A stretch of DNA of 64,000 nt from assembly GCA_964474895.1 (NCBI GenBank), contig CAYYUK010000001.1:13994-77993 (forward strand), written 5' to 3'. Below are positions 55,969 to 63,332 of this stretch, piece by piece. The position numbers and the translations under genes were made by a program. This DNA is from Candidatus Woesearchaeota archaeon. Its GTDB lineage: Archaea; Nanobdellota; Nanobdellia; SCGC-AAA011-G17; PNOQ01. Numbering within the stretch: position 1 is the first letter of the stretch; every line of letters begins with the position of its first letter. Below the pieces are notes generated by a model. It was not told where the DNA came from. It made no database searches and saw nothing but the letters and a program-made list of their open reading frames with translations.

Positions 55969-57423
55969 TTAACCTTTTATTACTCCAAGAGGTTTTAGTT
56001 TACAAATTTTCTTTCCTATTCCAATTTTGTCTGAAACTTCTGCAACATCTTCTATATTTTTGTAAACACCTGGTGATTCTTCGCTTATTCCTCTGCTTGA
56101 TGCTGCTTTAATATAAATCTTGTTTTTTTCCAATTCTTTTATTGTGCCTTCTGATGTAAATCTTTTGTTTGCTTCGTGTCTTGACATTAATCTTCCTGCT
56201 CCGTGTGCAGTGCTTGAAAATGTTTCATCCATTGCTTTATCTGTTCCTGCAAGTAAATAAGATGATGTTCCCATACTACCAGGTAAAAGTATTGGTTGGC
56301 CTGTTTTTTTATATTTTTTTGGAAGTTCTTTGTGTCCAGGACCAAAACTTCTAGTTGCTCCTTTCCTATGGATATAAACTTTCTTTACTTTTCCATTGAT
56401 TTTGTACTCTTCAATTTTAACTATGTTATGAGCAACATCATAAACAAGATTTAGATTAATCTTTGATCCAAAGACTTTTTTGAACGATTCTCTCATATAA
56501 TGTGTTATTATTTGTCTGTTGCACCACCCGTAGTTTGCAGCAGCACTCATTGCCCCAAGATAATCTTTTGCTAGTTGTGACCCTGTTGGTGCATAAATTA
56601 AATCTTTATCTGGAAGTTTTTTCACAATCTCTGGAAATTCATCCTCCATTCTTCTTAAGTAGTCGCTACAGACTTGGTGTCCCAATCCCCTTGATCCTGA
56701 GTGAACCATCACTACAATTTGATTTTCCTTTGTTATTCCAAAAGTCTCTGCAATTTCTTTGTCATAAATTTCTTCTACGTACTGTAATTCTATGAAATGA
56801 TTGCCCGCTCCTAAAGTTCCTAACTGTTTTCTTCCTCTCTTCTTTGCTTTTGGTGAAACCTTTGAGAAATCTGCAGTCTTCATGTGTCCTTTTTCTTCAC
56901 AAAGCTCTACATCTTCTTTTGTTGCATATTTGTTTTCTAATGCCCAATCTACACCAGTGTTTAGCACTTCTTTGTAGTCTTCATCACTTAATCTTAAATT
57001 TGACTCCTTGCCAATCCCACAAGGAATATCTTCGAACAGTTGGTTGATTAATTCTTTTATTTTTGATTCAACTTCTTCTTTTGTTAGTTTAGTTGTTAAT
57101 AATCTTACTCCGCAGTTTATGTCAAATCCTGTTACACCTGGTGAAATACATCCCTTTTCTATGTCAAATGCTGCTACACCGCCCACTGGTGCCCCGTACC
57201 CTTGGTGAGCATCAGGCATCATTAGAGATGCTTTTTGAATTCCTGGCAAGGTTGATAGATTAACTGCCTGTTGTATTGAGTCATCTTGCTTTATTTTGTT
57301 TAGAATTTTTTCTGAAGCAAAGATCTTTACTGGGACGTTCATATCCCCTTCTTTGTCTATCTTGTAAACATTTTCTCTTACTTTCTTTATTTTCCAATCT
57401 TTCATTTTAAGTATCGACCACAA
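55969..57423 (-). CDS. rtcB: RNA-splicing ligase RtcB
   Basis: 484 aa; metal-binding Cys/His motifs and SSTAHGAGRLMSR (H-GAGR) RtcB signature. Confidence 0.9.
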   Translation of the reverse strand: MWSILKMKDWKIKKVRENVYKIDKEGDMNVPVKIFASEKILNKIKQDDSIQQAVNLSTLPGIQKASLMMPDAHQGYGAPVGGVAAFDIEKGCISPGVTGFDINCGVRLLTTKLTKEEVESKIKELINQLFEDIPCGIGKESNLRLSDEDYKEVLNTGVDWALENKYATKEDVELCEEKGHMKTADFSKVSPKAKKRGRKQLGTLGAGNHFIELQYVEEIYDKEIAETFGITKENQIVVMVHSGSRGLGHQVCSDYLRRMEDEFPEIVKKLPDKDLIYAPTGSQLAKDYLGAMSAAANYGWCNRQIITHYMRESFKKVFGSKINLNLVYDVAHNIVKIEEYKINGKVKKVYIHRKGATRSFGPGHKELPKKYKKTGQPILLPGSMGTSSYLLAGTDKAMDETFSSTAHGAGRLMSRHEANKRFTSEGTIKELEKNKIYIKAASSRGISEESPGVYKNIEDVAEVSDKIGIGKKICKLKPLGVIKG

Positions 57424-57817
57424 CTGTTGCTTCGTAACCCTTTTTAGTTTTTTTTATTTCCATATCGCTGTATGTTACTGCCTTTATATCACTTTTTAAC
57501 TCGTAGTTGTTACAATTGTCTCCTTCTAATGTTGCAGTTAGTTCAAAGTCGTCTGTTACTTTAATTTGTTTTACTTTGTGTAAGAAAAAATGTTCAGTAT
57601 CTAACAAAAATAACAACTCTTGTAAGAAATCATACAACAATTGATCATAACTTTTTGTTTTTACTTTAATCTTCTTGGTTTTTGTTGATTTTACTTTGTT
57701 TGTTGGTCCTAAAATGTTGAACATTGCAAGTGCAGAATTACTAAAAACAGCGTCGATGTTTCTACCAAATGCTTTAAACTTTACATCTGCAGTGTGACTT
57801 ATGTATTTGTATTGCAT
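57407..57817 (-). CDS. archease (RtcB activator)
   Basis: N-terminal YISHTADVKF, about 136 aa; overlaps rtcB start. Confidence 0.8.
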   Translation of the reverse strand: MQYKYISHTADVKFKAFGRNIDAVFSNSALAMFNILGPTNKVKSTKTKKIKVKTKSYDQLLYDFLQELLFLLDTEHFFLHKVKQIKVTDDFELTATLEGDNCNNYELKSDIKAVTYSDMEIKKTKKGYEATVVVDT

Positions 57818-57947: not shown

Positions 57948-58253
57948 ATGGTAGCTGCAAGAAGAACTACAAAAAGAAAAACTGCAAGAAGAACTACAGC
58001 ACGTAGAACTGTTGCAAAAAGAAAGACAGCAACACGAAGAACTGCTGTTAAGAAAAGAACTACTGCACGAAGAACTACTGCAAAAAGAGCTGTAAGAAGA
58101 ACAACGGCTAAGAGAGCTGTAAGAAGAACAACAGCACGTAGAACTACTGCAAAAAAAGCTGTAAGAAGAACAACAGCTAAGAGAGCTGCAGGAAGAACTA
58201 CTGCAAAGAGAAGAACTACTGCACGTAGAACAGCTGTAAGAAGGAGAAGATAG
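57948..58253 (+). CDS. highly basic low-complexity repeat protein (RRTTAK(R/K)AV repeats)
   Basis: 101 aa, about 45% Arg+Lys, roughly 10 tandem 9-aa repeats (27-nt DNA repeats); TATA-like box and strong SD upstream. Confidence 0.6.
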   Translation: MVAARRTTKRKTARRTTARRTVAKRKTATRRTAVKKRTTARRTTAKRAVRRTTAKRAVRRTTARRTTAKKAVRRTTAKRAAGRTTAKRRTTARRTAVRRRR

Positions 58254-58316: not shown

Positions 58317-59246
58317 ATGAAGATTGTTGTTGCTCTTGGTGGGAATGCATTAACCTCTGGAAGGGGTAAGAATACCTATGTAAGTACTATTAATAGTTTG
58401 AAAAGAATTTCTATAATCTTGGCTGATTTGGTAAAGAAAAAACATAATCTTGTTATTACACATGGTTCGGGTCCACAGGCGGGCGCACTTTTGTTACAGA
58501 ATGAATTGTCAAAGAAAAAAGTTTCTAAACTGCCCCTTGATGTACTTGATGCAGAGGTGCAAGGACAGCTTGGTTATTTAATAGAGCAAACTTTACTTAA
58601 TACATTAAATGAACATAGGTTGAGAAAATCTGTTGTCACCTTACTTACACAAGTTGTAGTTGATAGAAAGGATCCTTCTTTTAGACGCCCAAGTAAACCT
58701 ATTGGACAGTTTTATACTAAAACACAACTTAATAAGATAAAGAAGAAAGGTGCTACATACAAAGAAGATTCTGGTAGAGGTTATAGGAGATTTGTTGCAA
58801 GCCCTTATCCTTTGGAGATTGTTGAATCAAAAACAATAAAGAATTTAGTTAAGAAAGGCATAATTGTTATTGCAACTGGTGGTGGTGGGATTCCTGTTTG
58901 TAAGAAAGATGGTCAACTATTTGGTATTGAAGCTGTTATAGACAAAGATTTGGCAAGTAGTGTTTTGGCTAATCAAGTTAAAGCAGATGTTCTACTCATT
59001 GTTACTAGCATCGATAGGGCTTATCTTAATTTTAGAAAAAAGAATCAAAAAGGTTTAAATAAAGTTAAATTGAAAGATGCTATAGTGTACTTGAAACAGG
59101 GACATTTTGCAGAAGGAAGTATGGCTCCAAAAATAATGTCTGCAATTGAGTTTTTGAAAAAAGGTGGTAAGAAAGTTATAATTACTGATCCAGGAAACAT
59201 ATCAAAGTCTATTGCAGGTATGGCTGGAACTACAATAATAAAATGA
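58317..59246 (+). CDS. arcC: carbamate kinase
   Basis: MKIVVALGGNAL N-terminus and amino-acid kinase fold; 309 aa. Confidence 0.88.
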   Translation: MKIVVALGGNALTSGRGKNTYVSTINSLKRISIILADLVKKKHNLVITHGSGPQAGALLLQNELSKKKVSKLPLDVLDAEVQGQLGYLIEQTLLNTLNEHRLRKSVVTLLTQVVVDRKDPSFRRPSKPIGQFYTKTQLNKIKKKGATYKEDSGRGYRRFVASPYPLEIVESKTIKNLVKKGIIVIATGGGGIPVCKKDGQLFGIEAVIDKDLASSVLANQVKADVLLIVTSIDRAYLNFRKKNQKGLNKVKLKDAIVYLKQGHFAEGSMAPKIMSAIEFLKKGGKKVIITDPGNISKSIAGMAGTTIIK

Positions 59247-59292
59247 AAAAAAGAGTTATTGCTATTAAAAGAGACTTAATTTTAAAAAATAG

Positions 59293-59364
59293 TGGGCGCG
59301 GAAGGAATTGAACCTTCATTTCTATCGGGTAAGGATAGCGTCCTAACCATTGGACTACGCGCCG
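59293..59364 (-). tRNA. atypical tRNA-like gene (Val, anticodon TAC?)
   Basis: Cloverleaf-like: D-arm GTCC-AATGGTTA-GGAC, anticodon arm CTATC-CTTACCC-GATAG, T-arm GAAGG-TTCAATT-CCTTC; but C at position 37 and a C1-C72 mismatch. Confidence 0.45.
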
Positions 59365-60145: not shown

Positions 60146-60200
60146 GTTGACATGGACGCGCGTGAGCTATTTAAATATAATTCTATAACTGGTATTGTGA

Positions 60201-61160
60201 AATCAGATAGTAAATAAAATAAAATTTAACAGGAATCCTGAATTAAATAAAGATGTTTCCTGGCTTATTGGGTTCTACTTGGCCGAAGGACTTAGAAAAA
60301 CTAAAGATTCAATAGGCGTAAGTAATGCAGAACCTTACCTAATACTTAAATCTCTTGGAATATTTGAAAAGTATTTTTGGATTAAAACTGATAATTGGAA
60401 AGTATTCATAAAAACAGATGAAAGAGAGAAAAGTAAATTGAGAAAAATATTAAATAAGTGGGATAACAATCTTGGACTGGTTACTAGATCATCTTATTCT
60501 AGTTTGGCTAAAAATCAAGCTGTTGATGTGAGGCTAAACAGCAGAATTTTAAATAAATTCCTAAAAGATTATATCAAAAAATCCCTAGCATTGATATCTA
60601 AAGATAGAACTCTATCTGAATACTTCTTAAGAGGTTATTTTGTTGGAGATGGATGTCCTATCAAAAGAAAGGATCAAATACACAGTATAACAATAACAAC
60701 AAAAGAAGAAACCCATTTAAAATTTTTGGTTGAGATTATGAACTTCTTTTTTGGTAAGATGCCAAACGTTAGATTGACTAAAAAATCTTACGAAATTTAT
60801 TATTGTGCTGTTGGAATAATAACTGAAGCGATACTTGCTAAGATTTTTATAGATTCGGAGAGACAGTGGAATAAATTTGTAAATGGGTATAAAAATAAAC
60901 AATACACGCGAGCGAGGATAAAATATTGGAAAGAAATTGCTTTTCATTCTTTAACCTCTTATGAAATAGCCAAATTATCTGGAAATTCTCATTGGTCTGT
61001 AAGTGATGCTTTGAATAAAGATATTAAACTTGGATTAGTTGATTCATCTTGCAAACAAATACATAAATTTGGTGCACCTGCCAAGAGTTATTCGTTAAGT
61101 TTAAAAGGATTGAAATTGTTAAACCTCTTAGAAGGGGTAGATAGTTATGAAAAAATATAG
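60201..61160 (+). mobile_element. LAGLIDADG-family homing endonuclease gene (double-motif), lacking a canonical ATG start
   Basis: First motif DVSWLIGFYLAEG (60252-60290) and second EYFLRGYFVGDGC; open frame starts after the stop at 60198-60200 with no in-frame ATG before the first motif (first TTG at 60279). Confidence 0.6.
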
Positions 61161-62448
61161 AGTTATTATTTCGGGGGCAGGGGGGCGTGATTTTTCAAAT
61201 TATCTAGTTTATTTCAAGAAAAACCCCAATTATGAAGTTGTTGCATTTACTGCTGCACAGATTCCTGGAATTGAAAAGAGAGTTTTCCCAAAGAAGTTAG
61301 CAAAAGGAAAAAGCATTCCTATTTATTCTGAAGAGAATCTTACTAAATTGATCAAATCTTTGAAAATTGATTATGTTTTCTTGAGTTATTCTGATCTTAG
61401 TGACCAATATGTTATGAATTTTGCATCAAAAGTTTTGAGTGCTGGCGCAAACTTTGGTTTACTTGGAACTAAAGATACTTATGTCAAATCTAAAAAACCT
61501 GTAATTGCTGTGACTGCTGTTAGAACTGGTTCTGGGAAAAGTCAAACTTCTAGAGCTATTGCTGAAATTTTAAGGAAGAAAGGTAAGAAAGTTGTTGCTA
61601 TCAGACATTCAATGCCTTATGGTAATCTGTTGAAACAAACATCTCAAAGATTTGAGAAAGAATCTGATTTTAAGAAGTATAAAACAACGATTGAAGAAGA
61701 AGAGGAATATCAACCTTGGATTGATCATGGCTTTGTTGTTTATTCCGGATTTGATTATAAGGAAATATTAAGTAAGGCCGAGAAAGAAGCAGATGTTATT
61801 ATATTTGATGGTGGAAACAATGATATCTCTTTTATTAAACCTGATTTGTTAATTACTGTTGTTGATCCGCATAGAGCTGGACATGAGTTGACTTATTATC
61901 CTGGTTTCGTTAATTTTCTTATGGCAGATGTTATTGTTGTGAATAAAGTAGATAGTGCTAAGAAAAAAGATATTGAAACTGTAAAATGGAATATCTTTAA
62001 GCACAATCCGGGGGCGGCTGTTGTTTTGGCCAAATCTGAATTGTTGATAAATAAGTCTGGTTCAATAAAGGGAAAAAGATGTGTTGTTGTTGGTGATGGT
62101 CCTACTTTAACCCATGGTGGTATGGGTTATGGTGCGGGATCCATTGCTGTTAGAAGACATGGTGGGAAATTTGTAAATGCTAAGAAATATGCTGTTGGTT
62201 CTTTGAAGAAGACTTTTAAAAAATATTCCCACTTGAATGAGGTTCCTGCAATGGGCTATAGTGGAAAACAGATTAAGGAATTAGAAAAAACAGTTAATCG
62301 GACTCCTTGTGATGTTGTTATTGATGGTACTCCTGCAAATTTGAAGAAATTGATTTCTGTGAATAAACCAATGATTGAAGTTGATTATGAATTGGGTGAA
62401 GATTCTGTTAGACATCTAAAGAATATTCTTTCGAGGAAGTTGAAATGA
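61147..62448 (+). CDS. P-loop NTPase-domain protein, possibly cyclic 2,3-diphosphoglycerate synthetase-like
   Basis: Walker A AVRTGSGKSQTS in the middle of a 433-aa protein with N-terminal Rossmann-like VIISGAGGRD; sits between carbamate kinase and carbamoyltransferase. Confidence 0.35.
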   Translation: MKKYRVIISGAGGRDFSNYLVYFKKNPNYEVVAFTAAQIPGIEKRVFPKKLAKGKSIPIYSEENLTKLIKSLKIDYVFLSYSDLSDQYVMNFASKVLSAGANFGLLGTKDTYVKSKKPVIAVTAVRTGSGKSQTSRAIAEILRKKGKKVVAIRHSMPYGNLLKQTSQRFEKESDFKKYKTTIEEEEEYQPWIDHGFVVYSGFDYKEILSKAEKEADVIIFDGGNNDISFIKPDLLITVVDPHRAGHELTYYPGFVNFLMADVIVVNKVDSAKKKDIETVKWNIFKHNPGAAVVLAKSELLINKSGSIKGKRCVVVGDGPTLTHGGMGYGAGSIAVRRHGGKFVNAKKYAVGSLKKTFKKYSHLNEVPAMGYSGKQIKELEKTVNRTPCDVVIDGTPANLKKLISVNKPMIEVDYELGEDSVRHLKNILSRKLK

Positions 62449-63332
62449 AACATTTTTTGACATTGAAAGATTATAGTTCTAAGGAGTTGTTGGGTTTAAT
62501 TAAACTTGGTCGTAAGATAAAGATGACTCCTTCTAAGTATGAGAATAAATTGAGGGGGAAAGTTCTTCTTATGTTATTTGCCAAACCTAGTTTGAGAACT
62601 CGCTTGAGTTTTGAAATTGGAATGCTTGGTCTTGGAGGTCATGCAATCTTTTATGATATTTCTACAAGTCCTTTAGGTAAGAAGGAGAGTATTAGAGATG
62701 GTTCTGCGGTTTCTACGCGTTATGTTGATATTGTAATGGCTCGTTTGTATGAACATAAAGATATTGAAGAGTTTGCTTCTCATTCTTCTGTTCCTGTAAT
62801 TAATGGTTTGACCAATAGTTATCATCCTTGTCAGGCTCTTGGTGATATGTTGACTATTTGGGAGAAGTTTCATGGGTTTAATGTTAAATTAGCTTATTTG
62901 GGTGATGCTAATAACAATGTTACTCATTCTTTGATGTATGCTTGCTCTAAATTGGGTGTTAAAATGCAAATTGCTTGTCCTAAGTCTAAAGAGTTTATGC
63001 CTGATTCTCGGGTTGTAAAAGAAACTGGAGTTAAAGTTGTTAGTTTGAAAGAAGCAGTTAGGGGTGCTGACGTTATTTATTCTGATTCTTGGAGATCATA
63101 TCATATTAAAGATAGTCAGATGAAACGTAGGTTGAAGGCTTTGAAAAAATATCAAGTTAATTCTAAAACTTTTGGTCGCAAAGCTTTGTTTATGCACTGT
63201 TTGCCCGCTACACGTGGTGAAGAAGTTACTGATCAAGTTATGGATAGTCCTAGAAGTGTTATTCTAGATCAGGCAGAGAATCGTGAGCATATTGAGAAAG
63301 CTATTATGTTGAAGTTGATGCGGAAGGGTTGA
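62445..63332 (+). CDS. ornithine-type carbamoyltransferase (OTC/ATC superfamily)
   Basis: STRTR carbamoyl-phosphate motif (PSLRTRLSFE), HPCQ, HCLP(A)TRGEEV. Confidence 0.8.
   Translation: MKHFLTLKDYSSKELLGLIKLGRKIKMTPSKYENKLRGKVLLMLFAKPSLRTRLSFEIGMLGLGGHAIFYDISTSPLGKKESIRDGSAVSTRYVDIVMARLYEHKDIEEFASHSSVPVINGLTNSYHPCQALGDMLTIWEKFHGFNVKLAYLGDANNNVTHSLMYACSKLGVKMQIACPKSKEFMPDSRVVKETGVKVVSLKEAVRGADVIYSDSWRSYHIKDSQMKRRLKALKKYQVNSKTFGRKALFMHCLPATRGEEVTDQVMDSPRSVILDQAENREHIEKAIMLKLMRKG

What the first reader, a model, noticed from the sequence alone, without database searches (positions are those of the whole stretch)
60201..61160. Free-standing LAGLIDADG homing endonuclease gene without a canonical start, inside a carbamoyl-phosphate metabolism cluster
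Both LAGLIDADG motifs are present (DVSWLIGFYLAEG and EYFLRGYFVGDGC). The first motif lies upstream of the first possible start codon (TTG at 60279). The open frame extends back to a stop at 60198-60200 with no in-frame ATG, so the gene is N-terminally decayed, uses a non-canonical start, or is the remnant of an intron/intein-borne endonuclease. It sits, together with a K-rich orphan gene on the opposite strand and an atypical tRNA, between carbamate kinase and a P-loop protein plus carbamoyltransferase that would otherwise form a compact cluster. This looks like a mobile-element insertion scar.
Basis: seen in the sequence. Interest (0 to 1): 0.55.

Follow-up and report, generated by a model that had tools for sequence, protein, structure and literature searches.

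The report
Live homing endonuclease beside its target
This is not a decayed scar but an intact, selectively maintained DNA-cutting (LAGLIDADG) gene from a small archaeal family that always sits just upstream of one highly conserved GTPase gene; in nearly all relatives that GTPase gene also carries a tiny tRNA-type intron, which points to a two-part mobile element not described before in archaea.

Summary
An open frame runs from 60201 to 61160, both LAGLIDADG motifs are present, and there is no ATG, GTG or TTG before the TTG at 60279, which lies inside motif 1. The "decay/scar" reading does not hold. Homologues start (ATG or TTG) at the codon that is ATA here (60207). The ATA is identical in four independent assemblies and in a relative with 88% nucleotide identity. 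dN/dS against that relative is 0.09, including the codons upstream of the TTG. The predicted fold is a double LAGLIDADG core plus a C-terminal winged helix. Both catalytic acidic residues are invariant in 21 homologues.

All 18 distinct copies of the gene recovered sit directly upstream of a conserved "predicted GTPase" gene. None of the 80 GTPase loci sampled from other genomes carries it, including compact arcC-GTPase-OTC clusters. In 16 of the 18 distinct copies, the GTPase gene carries a 17-31 nt bulge-helix-bulge mini-intron exactly at G-R-D|F-H-N-F. The two exceptions are the window and its close relative. They lack the intron and have a remodelled motif (FSNY).

Best reading: a free-standing homing endonuclease that partners an ORF-less BHB intron ("collaborative homing"). 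Cleavage and splicing are inferred, not shown.

The parts
60207..61160 (+). Gene X: a LAGLIDADG endonuclease with a C-terminal winged helix (317 aa counted from ATA 60207, plus the stop). The frame is open from 60201.
   Evidence: Translation. Homologue alignments A1 and A3. AF2 model with pLDDT 89. Foldseek matches to WhiA, intein endonuclease domains, I-Tsp061I and I-DmoI. dN/dS 0.088 against L097.
60207..60209 (+). ATA codon at the position of the homologues' start codon; the putative non-canonical start.
   Evidence: It aligns with the Met of MVNK/MVNR/MTNK in P0002, P0011 and P0012. It is identical in L001-L004 and in L097. The same ATA-for-ATG occurs independently in L106 and L105.
60170..60177 (+). 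TATA-like box (TTTAAATA) about 30 nt upstream of the ATA. This implies a very short leader or none.
   Evidence: Read from the sequence. Homologues L011, L012, L106 and L108 have TTTATAA(A) at a similar distance. Assignment as an archaeal promoter is inference.
60156..60163 (+). ACGCGCGT palindrome just upstream of the TATA box. It contains the only CGCGCG in the 64-kb window and is a possible operator (speculative).
   Evidence: It is conserved in L097 while flanking bases changed. L012 and L102 carry small CGCG-type palindromes at the same place.
60252..60290 (+). LAGLIDADG motif 1 (DVSWLIGFYLAEG). The catalytic Glu is invariant.
   Evidence: W19, G22, F23, A26, E27 and G28 are invariant in 21 sequences. 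It forms helix 17-29 of the model.
60618..60656 (+). LAGLIDADG motif 2 (EYFLRGYFVGDGC). The catalytic Asp is invariant.
   Evidence: Pfam LAGLIDADG_3, E 2.8e-6. F140, G143, G147, D148 and G149 are invariant.
60858..61133 (+). C-terminal winged-helix DNA-binding domain. This is the most conserved part of the family (GYKNKQYTRARIKYW...SGNSHWSVxDALNKD).
   Evidence: Alignment. Secondary structure H220-311. Foldseek matches to TubR and MarR wHTH domains and to full-length WhiA.
61147..62448 (+). P-loop "predicted GTPase" gene, the presumed target gene. Its start overlaps the end of X by 14 nt. It has no intron here.
   Evidence: An X homologue lies directly upstream of this gene in every X locus.
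61174..61203 (+). Region equivalent to the intron-insertion site. The site lies between 61191 and 61192 (GAT|TTT) within G-A-G-G-R-D|F-S-N-Y. This is the presumed, here mutated, homing site.
   Evidence: Relatives carry the BHB intron exactly here. The motif GAAGRD|FHNF is nearly invariant in 80 X-less genes, whereas the window and L097 have FSNY.
58317..59246 (+). Carbamate kinase (arcC). This is the upstream flank of the X slot in most relatives.
   Evidence: TIGR00746, 360 bits. Synteny.
62445..63332 (+). Ornithine carbamoyltransferase, cluster partner of the GTPase gene.

Best explanation
The ORF encodes a functional, monomeric two-motif LAGLIDADG endonuclease fused to a winged-helix domain. 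It belongs to a small family found in DPANN archaea (Pacearchaeota and Micrarchaeia types).

The family behaves as a free-standing homing endonuclease gene. It is inserted immediately upstream of a near-universally conserved GTPase gene. The likely recognition site is the invariant GAAGRD|FHNF-coding stretch 13-17 codons into that gene.

In almost all carriers, the GTPase gene is interrupted at that site by a 17-31 nt bulge-helix-bulge mini-intron. The tRNA-splicing endonuclease and RtcB ligase would excise it from the mRNA. The intron would break the recognition site and protect the carrier. A cut in a naive allele, repaired from a carrier, would copy the intron and, by co-conversion over about 50 bp, the endonuclease gene. 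This is "collaborative homing".

The window lineage is a derived variant. The intron has been lost, six bases of the 12 bp just 3' of the insertion site are changed (FHNF to FSNY), and the endonuclease gene is kept under purifying selection. It is probably translated from ATA at 60207 on a near-leaderless transcript.

Shown:
- gene integrity and selection
- predicted fold and conserved catalytic residues
- strict linkage to the GTPase gene
- presence/absence polymorphism
- the BHB structure with covariation
- restoration of the reading frame

Inferred:
- DNA cleavage and its site
- RNA splicing
- protection by the intron or by the mutated motif
- ATA initiation
For: Gene integrity and selection:
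- There is no canonical start, but the ATA aligns with the homologues' ATG.
- The ATA is identical in four assemblies and in L097, which is 88.5% identical in nucleotides.
- dN/dS is 0.088 for X, against 0.061 for OTC and 0.156 for the GTPase. It is 0.105 for the 24 codons upstream of the TTG.
- ATA occurs at the start position independently in L106 and L105, whose closest relatives have ATG.

Fold and catalytic residues:
- AF2 model with pLDDT 89.
- Foldseek matches to WhiA, intein endonuclease domains, I-Tsp061I and I-DmoI.
- E27 and D148 are invariant in 21 sequences sharing 28-92% identity.

Linkage to the GTPase gene:
- X lies directly upstream of the GTPase gene in all loci.
- This holds even in L011, where carB/carA rather than OTC follow the GTPase gene.

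Presence/absence:
- 0 of 80 GTPase loci from GTDB genomes carry X or an intron.
- L005 against L018 shows clean indels of X and of the 27-nt intron.
- X+ and X- lineages are interspersed on the GTPase tree.

The intron:
- There are 16 distinct introns.
- In the 15 tabulated, the central 4-bp helix is paired in 60 of 60 cells, with four covarying types (CGCG/CGCG, CGUG/CACG, CGUG/UACG, AGAG/CUCU).
- The two bulges are 3 nt each.
- Canonical cleavage always restores GA(U/C)|U(U/A)(U/C), which is the D|F or D|Y seen in intronless genes.
- 92.7% of cells are paired, against 30-62% in slid registers. The covariation score is 0.504 against 0.236, with 0 of 500 shuffles reaching it.

Break-site relics and mosaics:
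- L016 keeps the first 13 GTPase codons upstream of X.
- Between the L012 and L124 GTPase products, identity is 60% in residues 1-40 and 95-99% after residue 80.
- Between the window and L097, divergence peaks over the GTPase gene.

Precedent for the mechanism: F-CphI and the psbA intron (PMC6083498); T4 mobE (PMC2790892).
Against: - There are no biochemical or transcript data. No spliced-type product was found among database cluster members.
- The window itself has no intron, so the partnership is seen only in relatives.
- The recognition site is inferred from position only.
- Long-term retention under strong purifying selection, the WhiA-like architecture, and the winged helix being the most conserved part all fit a host-beneficial DNA-binding role equally well.
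Introns without X elsewhere are therefore not excluded.
- The assemblies carrying the ATA come from one kind of environment.
- AUA is a poor initiator in the systems that have been studied.
Confidence: 0.6

Rival explanations
1. Domesticated, WhiA-like DNA-binding regulator. The LAGLIDADG scaffold plus winged helix no longer cuts DNA. Instead it controls transcription of the arcC-GTPase-OTC (carbamoyl-phosphate) cluster, and perhaps its own promoter through the ACGCGCGT element.
For: - The best structural match is full-length WhiA (3hyi).
- The C-terminal winged helix is the most conserved region.
- dN/dS is 0.09.
- The gene is always linked to carbamoyl-phosphate genes, including carB/carA in L011.
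- It persists in the window clade without the intron.
- A unique palindrome lies by the TATA box.
Against: - Both catalytic acidic residues are invariant over 21 sequences. WhiA lacks them, by established knowledge of that family.
- No WhiA Pfam family is hit by the window protein at E up to 1. P0003 gives only a sub-threshold hit at E 0.01.
- Close relatives run the same operon without the gene.
- The strict co-occurrence with the intron, the relic in L016, the 5' mosaic tracts, and a second unrelated LAGLIDADG gene in the same slot are all signatures of mobile elements.
- The two roles are not mutually exclusive. I-TevI, for example, is also an autorepressor (own knowledge).
Confidence: 0.2
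2. Start-codon loss has made this a recently dead pseudogene or scar of a mobile element.
For: There is no ATG, GTG or TTG upstream of motif 1. L016 shows a frameshift in its N-terminal extension.
Against: - The ATA and the intact 317-codon ORF are retained across dS = 0.38, with dN/dS 0.088, including the N-terminal 24 codons.
- The probability of such an open frame by chance is about 2e-12.
- The ATA recurs in other lineages.
Confidence: 0.04
3. Remnant of an endonuclease that was once encoded inside an intervening sequence (a large BHB intron or an intein) in the GTPase gene and later became free-standing, leaving the mini-intron behind. It would no longer be mobile.
For: - The LAGLIDADG_3 subtype and the structural matches are to intein-borne and archaeal intron-borne enzymes.
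- In L016 a GTPase exon-1 fragment lies upstream of X.
- In L118 a distant relative is flanked by an N-terminal relic of a methylthiotransferase gene.
Against: - There are no intein splicing blocks, and stop codons lie on both sides of the gene.
- A complete exon 1 with its own Shine-Dalgarno sequence and start follows X in every locus.
- The patchy distribution and mosaics point to continuing mobility.
- This is a statement about origin rather than present function, and it is compatible with the best explanation.
Confidence: 0.1

Closest known systems
Collaborative homing: free-standing endonuclease F-CphI plus the ORF-less group I intron in cyanophage psbA (Zeng, Bonocora and Shub 2009, as summarised in PMC6083498). 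Also T4 mobE with the I-TevIII intron (PMC2790892).
   Same: - The endonuclease gene sits next to, not inside, the target gene.
- Carriers have an ORF-less intron at a conserved site in that gene.
- Genomes without the endonuclease lack the intron.
- Flanking sequence is mosaic.
   Different: - The intron here is a 17-31 nt bulge-helix-bulge intron removed by host enzymes, not a self-splicing group I ribozyme.
- The endonuclease is a LAGLIDADG enzyme with a winged helix.
- The hosts are cellular DPANN archaea, not phages.
- Cleavage and protection are untested.
- The window copy has no intron partner.
Archaeal LAGLIDADG homing endonucleases of rRNA BHB introns (I-DmoI, I-Tsp061I, I-PorI)
   Same: - Monomeric two-motif LAGLIDADG fold with conserved acidic residues.
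- Archaeal hosts.
- Association with BHB introns.
   Different: - Those enzymes are encoded inside large introns of rRNA genes and are about 170-200 aa.
- This one is free-standing, has an extra C-terminal domain of about 100 aa, and is linked to a protein-coding gene.
WhiA (bacterial sporulation and cell-division regulator; PDB 3hyi, 8dy9)
   Same: Same domain architecture: two LAGLIDADG domains followed by a C-terminal helix-turn-helix. It is the best Foldseek match.
   Different: - WhiA has lost the catalytic residues, whereas here E27 and D148 are invariant.
- There is no significant sequence-profile match to the WhiA Pfam families.
- The host is archaeal, the distribution is patchy, and the behaviour is that of a mobile element.
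The cbf5 pre-mRNA BHB intron of Crenarchaeota (PMC2738675). It is cited in PMC7714728 as the only BHB intron reported in an mRNA apart from that study's own Haloferax 5'-UTR substrate (HVO_1309).
   Same: [quoted passage not shown]
- Lineage-specific presence and loss.
- It confuses gene callers.
   Different: - Different gene (a CPGS-like GTPase) and different phyla (DPANN).
- The BHB geometry is canonical 3-4-3.
- The intron is physically linked to an endonuclease gene, which cbf5 introns lack. PMC2738675 notes they are too short to encode one and gives no mobility mechanism.

Membership tests
LAGLIDADG homing endonuclease (two-motif, monomeric) | Two LAGLIDADG helices, each ending in an acidic residue followed by Gly | tested here: met
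   The motifs end ...YLAEG and ...VGDG. E27 and D148 are invariant in 21 homologues.
LAGLIDADG homing endonuclease (two-motif, monomeric) | Profile match above the curated threshold | tested here: met
   Pfam LAGLIDADG_3 scores 27.9 bits against a cutoff of 22.5, covering motif 2 only.
LAGLIDADG homing endonuclease (two-motif, monomeric) | Duplicated alpha-beta-beta-alpha-beta-beta-alpha core fold | tested here: met
   AF2 model with pLDDT 89 and pTM 0.87. Foldseek probability 1.0 to PI-SceI, TliVMA, I-Tsp061I, I-DmoI and I-SceI.
LAGLIDADG homing endonuclease (two-motif, monomeric) | Optional element at a fixed site in a conserved gene region (presence/absence polymorphism) | tested here: met
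   L005 against L018. 0 of 80 other GTPase loci carry X. The distribution on the GTPase tree is patchy.
LAGLIDADG homing endonuclease (two-motif, monomeric) | Site-specific double-strand cleavage of the empty allele | not testable with these tools
   Needs an in vitro cleavage assay.
Collaborative homing system (free-standing HEG plus ORF-less intron) | Intron at a conserved site of the gene adjacent to the HEG in carriers, and absent where the HEG is absent | tested here: met
   16 of 18 distinct X-linked GTPase genes have the intron, against 0 of 80 X-less genes. Not met in the window itself or in L097, which have X but no intron.
Collaborative homing system (free-standing HEG plus ORF-less intron) | The endonuclease cuts the intronless allele at the intron-insertion site, and the intron prevents self-cleavage | not testable with these tools
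   Only indirect evidence is available: the relic ending 2 codons before the site in L016, and the remodelled motif in the intronless window clade.
Bulge-helix-bulge (BHB) intron | A 4-bp helix flanked by two 3-nt bulges on opposite strands (definition in PMC7714728) | tested here: met
   Central helix paired in 60 of 60 cells across the 15 introns tabulated, and in 100% of cells in the 15 distinct core rows of the 16-locus alignment A4. Bulges AU|N and NN|U. MFE folds show the motif. Relatives only; absent from the window.
Bulge-helix-bulge (BHB) intron | Compensatory covariation, and exact restoration of the host reading frame by canonical cleavage | tested here: met
   Four central-helix types, including AGAG/CUCU where the Arg codon is AGA. 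7 of 11 pairs have double-sided changes. Spliced ORFs are full length (440-446 aa in the four translated loci).
Bulge-helix-bulge (BHB) intron | Excision by the splicing endonuclease and ligation in vivo | not testable with these tools
   No transcript data. No spliced-type product in the database clusters.
WhiA | Degenerate LAGLIDADG core lacking catalytic acidic residues | tested here: not met
   E27 and D148 are invariant.
WhiA | Match to the WhiA Pfam families (WhiA_N, LAGLIDADG_WhiA, HTH_WhiA) | tested here: not met
   No hit at E up to 1 for the window protein. P0003 hits LAGLIDADG_WhiA at E 0.01 with 16.3 bits, below the 23.2-bit cutoff.
WhiA | Two LAGLIDADG domains plus a C-terminal HTH | tested here: met
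   Foldseek top hit 3hyi, E 2.9e-7.
Intein-borne endonuclease | In frame with host exteins, with an N-terminal Cys/Ser and a C-terminal His-Asn splicing junction | tested here: not met
   A stop codon lies 2 codons upstream of the ATA, and the gene has its own stop. The C-terminus is ...SYEKI. Structural matches to inteins cover the endonuclease domain only.

The most novel reading that the evidence does not exclude
A free-standing LAGLIDADG endonuclease gene and an ORF-less bulge-helix-bulge mini-intron in the coding region of a conserved GTPase gene form one composite mobile element in DPANN archaea. This would be the first archaeal case of collaborative homing, and the first DNA-level mobility mechanism proposed for the short BHB introns found in mRNAs and tRNAs.

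The window lineage would then be an escape variant. The intron has been lost, the target motif is remodelled, and the endonuclease is kept at low expression through an AUA start.
Probability: 0.5. Interest if true: 0.85.

Novelty: new variant of a known kind. Interest (0 to 1): 0.75.

Why it matters
- **How short introns spread.** It is an open question how short archaeal BHB introns, which encode nothing, are gained and spread. PMC2738675 notes that the cbf5 intron is too short to encode a nuclease. A linked free-standing endonuclease would give a concrete, testable mechanism.
- **A second coding-region intron family.** Apart from cbf5 and one 5'-UTR case in Haloferax (PMC7714728), no BHB intron in an mRNA appears in the literature I could search. 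This one has 16 natural sequence variants, which makes it a ready substrate set for studies of splicing-endonuclease specificity.
- **Genome annotation.** Gene callers truncate, mis-frame or miss this GTPase gene in every carrier genome.
- **Possible tools.** The family offers new LAGLIDADG scaffolds with an added winged-helix module and a well-defined presumptive target.
- **AUA initiation.** The recurrent ATA at the start position is a candidate natural case of AUA initiation in archaea.

Tried and rejected
- **Sequencing or assembly error at the start.** Rejected. The 192 bases are identical in four assemblies, and the ATA plus the upstream TGA are kept in the diverged L097.
- **TTG 60279 as the true start.** Rejected. 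It lies inside LAGLIDADG helix 1, and the upstream 24 codons are under purifying selection.
- **A +1 frameshift from the small GTG ORF (60197-60217), in the manner of prfB.** Rejected. Its stop codon is not conserved in L097 (TAA to CAA), and that change is synonymous in the X frame.
- **ATA start as a consequence of intron loss.** Rejected. L105 and L106 have the ATA and still have the intron.
- **The tRNA-Val and the minus-strand ORF as part of the element.** Rejected.
- **Intein.** Rejected.
- **The mini-insert as frameshift, bypass or assembly noise.** Rejected. The lengths are 17, 18, 20, 22, 27, 29, 30 and 31 nt, falling in all three length classes modulo 3. All carry stops or shift the frame. 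All fold as the same covarying BHB, and all restore D|F or D|Y.
- **Search for spliced cDNA-like products among cluster members of the truncated GTPase proteins.** None was found. The 440-aa members turned out to be intronless alleles next to a different LAGLIDADG gene.
- **Pfam and NCBIfam on the minus-strand ORF.** Nothing found.
- **The 1.5-kb gap between arcC and the GTPase gene in L017.** It holds a metallopeptidase-like ORF (HESGH motif, read by eye; no profile search run), with no LAGLIDADG motif apparent.
- **Literature searches for this system.** Nothing found.
Full report
**1. The observation**

- TGA at 60198-60200 closes the frame upstream.
- The frame is open from 60201 to TAG at 61158-61160.
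- The first ATG, GTG or TTG in frame is the TTG at 60279.
- That TTG is the Leu codon inside LAGLIDADG motif 1 (DVSWLIGFYLAEG, 60252-60290).
- Motif 2 (EYFLRGYFVGDGC) is at 60618-60656.

The window is 32.6% GC. A random 319-codon open frame has a probability of about 2e-12. Pfam LAGLIDADG_3 matches motif 2 above its gathering score.

The neighbours are carbamate kinase, a P-loop protein and ornithine carbamoyltransferase. The tRNA at 59292-59364 is an ordinary tRNA-Val. The minus-strand ORF has homologues at 56-72% identity in unrelated contexts, so it is not an orphan and not part of this element.

**2. The gene is alive**

A search of 5.8 billion proteins found a small family at 37-53% identity, from Pacearchaeota and Micrarchaeia MAGs. 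A profile search of 1.84 billion representatives found only 16 clusters below E 1e-30.

In the alignment, homologues begin M-VNK, M-VNR or M-TNK exactly where the window reads I-VNK. The ATA at 60207 therefore occupies the start position.

This is not an assembly error.
- Four independently assembled metagenome contigs are identical over the 192 bases compared.
- A diverged relative, L097, keeps the same TGA and ATA. L097 is 88.5% identical in nucleotides over 3.4 kb, and its X protein is 92% identical.

Between the window and L097, dN/dS is:

| Gene or region | dN/dS |
|---|---|
| X (dS 0.38) | 0.088 |
| OTC | 0.061 |
| P-loop gene | 0.156 |
| The 24 codons of X upstream of the TTG | 0.105 |

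The protein, N-terminus included, is therefore under purifying selection.

The same ATA-for-ATG substitution occurs independently in the Micrarchaeia-type clade.
- L106 has ATA ACG AAC AAA, with no canonical start and a stop three codons upstream.
- L105 has ATA ACA AAT AAA.
- Their relatives L108 and L011 have ATG at that codon.
- Other members use TTG (L005, L012).

A TATA-like box (60170-60177) lies about 30 nt upstream of the ATA. Homologues have TTTATAA(A) at a similar distance. The likely picture is a near-leaderless mRNA with a weak start. This is inference.

**3. What the protein is**

The AlphaFold model built on the family alignment is confident (pLDDT 89, pTM 0.87). It shows two alpha-beta-beta-alpha-beta-beta-alpha LAGLIDADG domains followed by a helical, winged-helix C-terminal domain.

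Foldseek against the PDB gives these matches:
- full-length WhiA first (3hyi)
- then the endonuclease domains of the TliVMA and PI-SceI inteins
- then the archaeal intron enzymes I-Tsp061I and I-DmoI
- TubR and MarR winged helices for the tail

Unlike WhiA, both catalytic acidic residues are invariant. Numbering from the ATA, these are E27 in ...AEG and D148 in ...GDG. They hold in 21 sequences sharing as little as 28% identity. The WhiA Pfam families are not matched. There are no intein features.

**4. Where it sits, and the unexpected partner**

In every locus recovered, the gene ("X") lies immediately upstream of the homologue of the window's P-loop gene at 61147-62448. Its end often overlaps that gene's ribosome-binding site or start. 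The loci came from exact-protein look-ups and from a metagenome scan with the family profile (21 loci).

Source databases call the P-loop gene "predicted GTPase". It is distantly related to cyclic 2,3-diphosphoglycerate synthetase. It is 51-61% identical across Bacteria and Archaea.

Gene callers truncate, mis-frame or miss this gene next to X. The reason is a short insert after the codons G-R-D, 13-17 codons into the gene. It is 17, 18, 20, 22, 27, 29, 30 or 31 nt long and carries stop codons, shifts the frame, or both.

All 16 distinct inserts share the same architecture:
- an outer helix (GGN pairing with NCC or NUC)
- a central 4-bp helix
- two 3-nt bulges on opposite strands (AU|N and NN|U)
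- an inner hairpin

This is the canonical bulge-helix-bulge motif of archaeal splicing-endonuclease substrates. [quoted passage not shown]

Cleavage after the second bulge nucleotide is the position used in canonical pre-tRNA introns (established knowledge). In every case it joins GA(U/C) to U(U/A)(U/C). That gives the D|F or D|Y found in uninterrupted genes, and it yields full-length ORFs, each preceded by its own Shine-Dalgarno sequence and start (440-446 aa in the four loci translated).

The central helix covaries with the Arg codon:

| 5' strand | 3' strand | Loci |
|---|---|---|
| CGCG | CGCG | most loci |
| CGUG | CACG | L107, L109, L115 |
| CGUG | UACG | L110 |
| AGAG | CUCU | L111-113 |

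In the 15 introns tabulated, pairing is 60 of 60 cells in the central helix and 58 of 60 in the inner helix.

On a fixed-register core alignment of all 16 loci (15 distinct rows):
- 92.7% of cells pair, against 30-62% when partners are slid.
- 7 of 11 pairs show changes on both sides.
- The covariation score is 0.504 against 0.236 for shuffles, with 0 of 500 shuffles reaching it.

I conclude that these are BHB mini-introns in a protein-coding gene. Splicing itself is inferred. The window also encodes RtcB and archease, at 55969-57817 (Pfam assignments for the identical contig L001).

**5. X and the intron come and go together**

Of 18 distinct X-linked GTPase genes, 16 carry the intron. The two that do not are the window and L097, which form one clade.

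The 80 best GTPase loci from GTDB species genomes carry neither X nor an insert. This sample is biased towards contiguous matches. It includes Woesearchaeota with compact arcC-GTPase-OTC clusters (L018, L019, L023).

L018 is a close X-less relative of the carrier L005, with arcC 83.6% and GTPase exon 2 75% identical in nucleotides. In L005, about 940 bp containing X sit exactly between the AAAGAGGT Shine-Dalgarno sequence and the GTPase start. The 27-nt intron is exactly absent from L018.

On a neighbour-joining tree of the GTPase, X+ and X- lineages are interspersed. The X tree mirrors the GTPase tree only at shallow depth.

**6. Traces of breaks and gene conversion at the site**

- In L016, a copy of the first 13 GTPase codons (MKKRRVIILGAAG) lies upstream of X. 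It ends two codons before the intron site. A complete exon 1, intron and exon 2 follow X.
- Distant relatives of X (28% identity) sit in the same way upstream of a MiaB-like methylthiotransferase gene. In L118 a 53-aa N-terminal relic of that gene is displaced upstream.
- In L124-L127, an unrelated LAGLIDADG_3 gene occupies the same arcC|GTPase slot next to an intronless GTPase gene. It is 410 aa and has an N-terminal HTH. That GTPase product is 95-99% identical to the L012 carrier product from residue 81 on, but only 60% identical in residues 1-40.
- Between the window and L097, identity runs from 99% in the upstream gene, through 86-95% across X, to 72-80% over the GTPase gene, and back to about 94% in OTC.

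These are the mosaics expected around homing-endonuclease genes.

**7. Mechanism proposed**

The stretch interrupted by the intron encodes GAAGRD|FHNF. This motif is almost invariant in the 80 bacterial and archaeal genes examined, which is the type of site that homing endonucleases exploit.

The best-supported model is that X cleaves intronless alleles at or near this site. Repair from a carrier allele would copy the intron and, about 50 bp away, X. The intron would disrupt the site in carriers. This is the logic of "collaborative homing", described for the cyanophage endonuclease F-CphI and the psbA group I intron (PMC6083498) and related to mobE of T4 (PMC2790892).

In the window clade the intron is absent. 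There, six of the 12 bp just 3' of the site differ from the carriers' exon sequence (TTT TCA AAT TAT against TTC CAC AAT TTC). This turns the conserved FHNF into FSNY, and Ser at that position is seen in no other sequence examined. I read this as an alternative form of immunity. It is inference.

**8. Rivals**

- **WhiA-like domesticated regulator.** This remains possible and is not exclusive. It would explain the strong selection, the very conserved winged helix, and the unique ACGCGCGT palindrome by the TATA box. It does not explain the invariant catalytic residues, the patchy distribution, the linkage to the intron, the relics, or the second endonuclease family in the same slot.
- **Pseudogene or scar.** Contradicted.
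- **Origin from an intron-encoded ancestor.** Plausible, but this concerns history rather than present function.

**9. Novelty**

Full-text searches found no description of this gene family, of a BHB intron in this GTPase gene, or of an endonuclease/BHB-intron partnership.

Apart from that study's own Haloferax 5'-UTR substrate, PMC7714728 cites cbf5 of Crenarchaeota as the only BHB intron reported in an mRNA. PMC2738675 notes that such introns are too short to encode a nuclease.

The components and the logic are all known: LAGLIDADG enzymes, BHB introns and collaborative homing. I therefore rate this a new variant of a known kind, with high interest. The window copy itself is the atypical member: no intron, and an ATA start.

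**10. Caveats**

- Everything rests on metagenome assemblies.
- The X-less sample is the top 80 of at least 592 hits.
- The trees are neighbour-joining only.
- The cleavage site, splicing, immunity and AUA initiation are all untested.

Noticed in passing
L124 231-1463 (also L125-L127): A different LAGLIDADG_3 gene occupies the same slot between arcC and the GTPase gene, next to an intronless GTPase gene. It is 410 aa, has an N-terminal HTH, carries the motifs GYVLGLMISDADKD and LNGIYDGDGC, and has no detectable similarity to X. The slot looks like a hot spot for free-standing endonuclease genes.
   Followed up: partly
L118 4617-7431; L119 5001-7446: Distant relatives of X (477-483 aa, 28% identity) sit immediately upstream of a MiaB-like methylthiotransferase gene. 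In L118, a 53-aa relic of that gene's N-terminus lies upstream of the endonuclease gene, and a complete copy starts at its 3' end.
   Followed up: partly
L118 9468-10814 (-): Another 448-aa LAGLIDADG_3/HTH_38 gene lies beside gatB, at the position where the related contig L119 has gatD.
   Followed up: no
window 60156-60163: ACGCGCGT contains the only CGCGCG in the 64 kb. It lies 7 nt upstream of the TATA-like box of X and is conserved in L097 while neighbouring bases changed. L012 and L102 share an identical 22-nt element (TCACTAGTCCATCGGACAACCT) and small CGCG-type palindromes upstream of their TATA boxes. This may be an operator.
   Followed up: partly
window 60197-60217: A six-codon GTG ORF in the -1 frame overlaps the ATA. 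Its stop is not conserved in L097, so it is probably not functional.
   Followed up: yes
window 61147-62448 vs L097 1180-2472: The GTPase gene is a divergence hot spot between two otherwise close strains: 82% amino-acid identity and dS 0.74, against 92-97% and dS 0.29-0.38 for X and OTC, with the short orfM segment held in L097 identical. This suggests recombination with a more distant allele.
   Followed up: partly
L005 7005-8297; L011 6906-8250; L012 7205-8293; L016 7307-8365; L123 4055-5359: Public gene calls for the intron-bearing GTPase genes are wrong. They are either N-terminally truncated, started in a wrong frame that reads through the intron (L123), or missed entirely (L011).
   Followed up: yes
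window 57948-58253: A 101-aa protein made of R/T/A/K-rich repeats, with a sub-threshold match to the histone H1-like HC2 family. It lies between the archease/RtcB genes and arcC.
   Followed up: no
window 55969-57817 (-): RtcB RNA ligase and archease, the ligation half of the BHB splicing pathway, lie 0.5 kb upstream of arcC. They are common to archaea, so this is probably coincidental.
   Followed up: no
L016 5799-6001: The long-form homologue P0004 has a frameshift in its N-terminal extension of about 100 aa (ATG MGFK... in one frame, the body in the next). Long forms (394-410 aa: P0003, P0006, P0010) carry this extra N-terminal domain, whose function is unknown.
   Followed up: no
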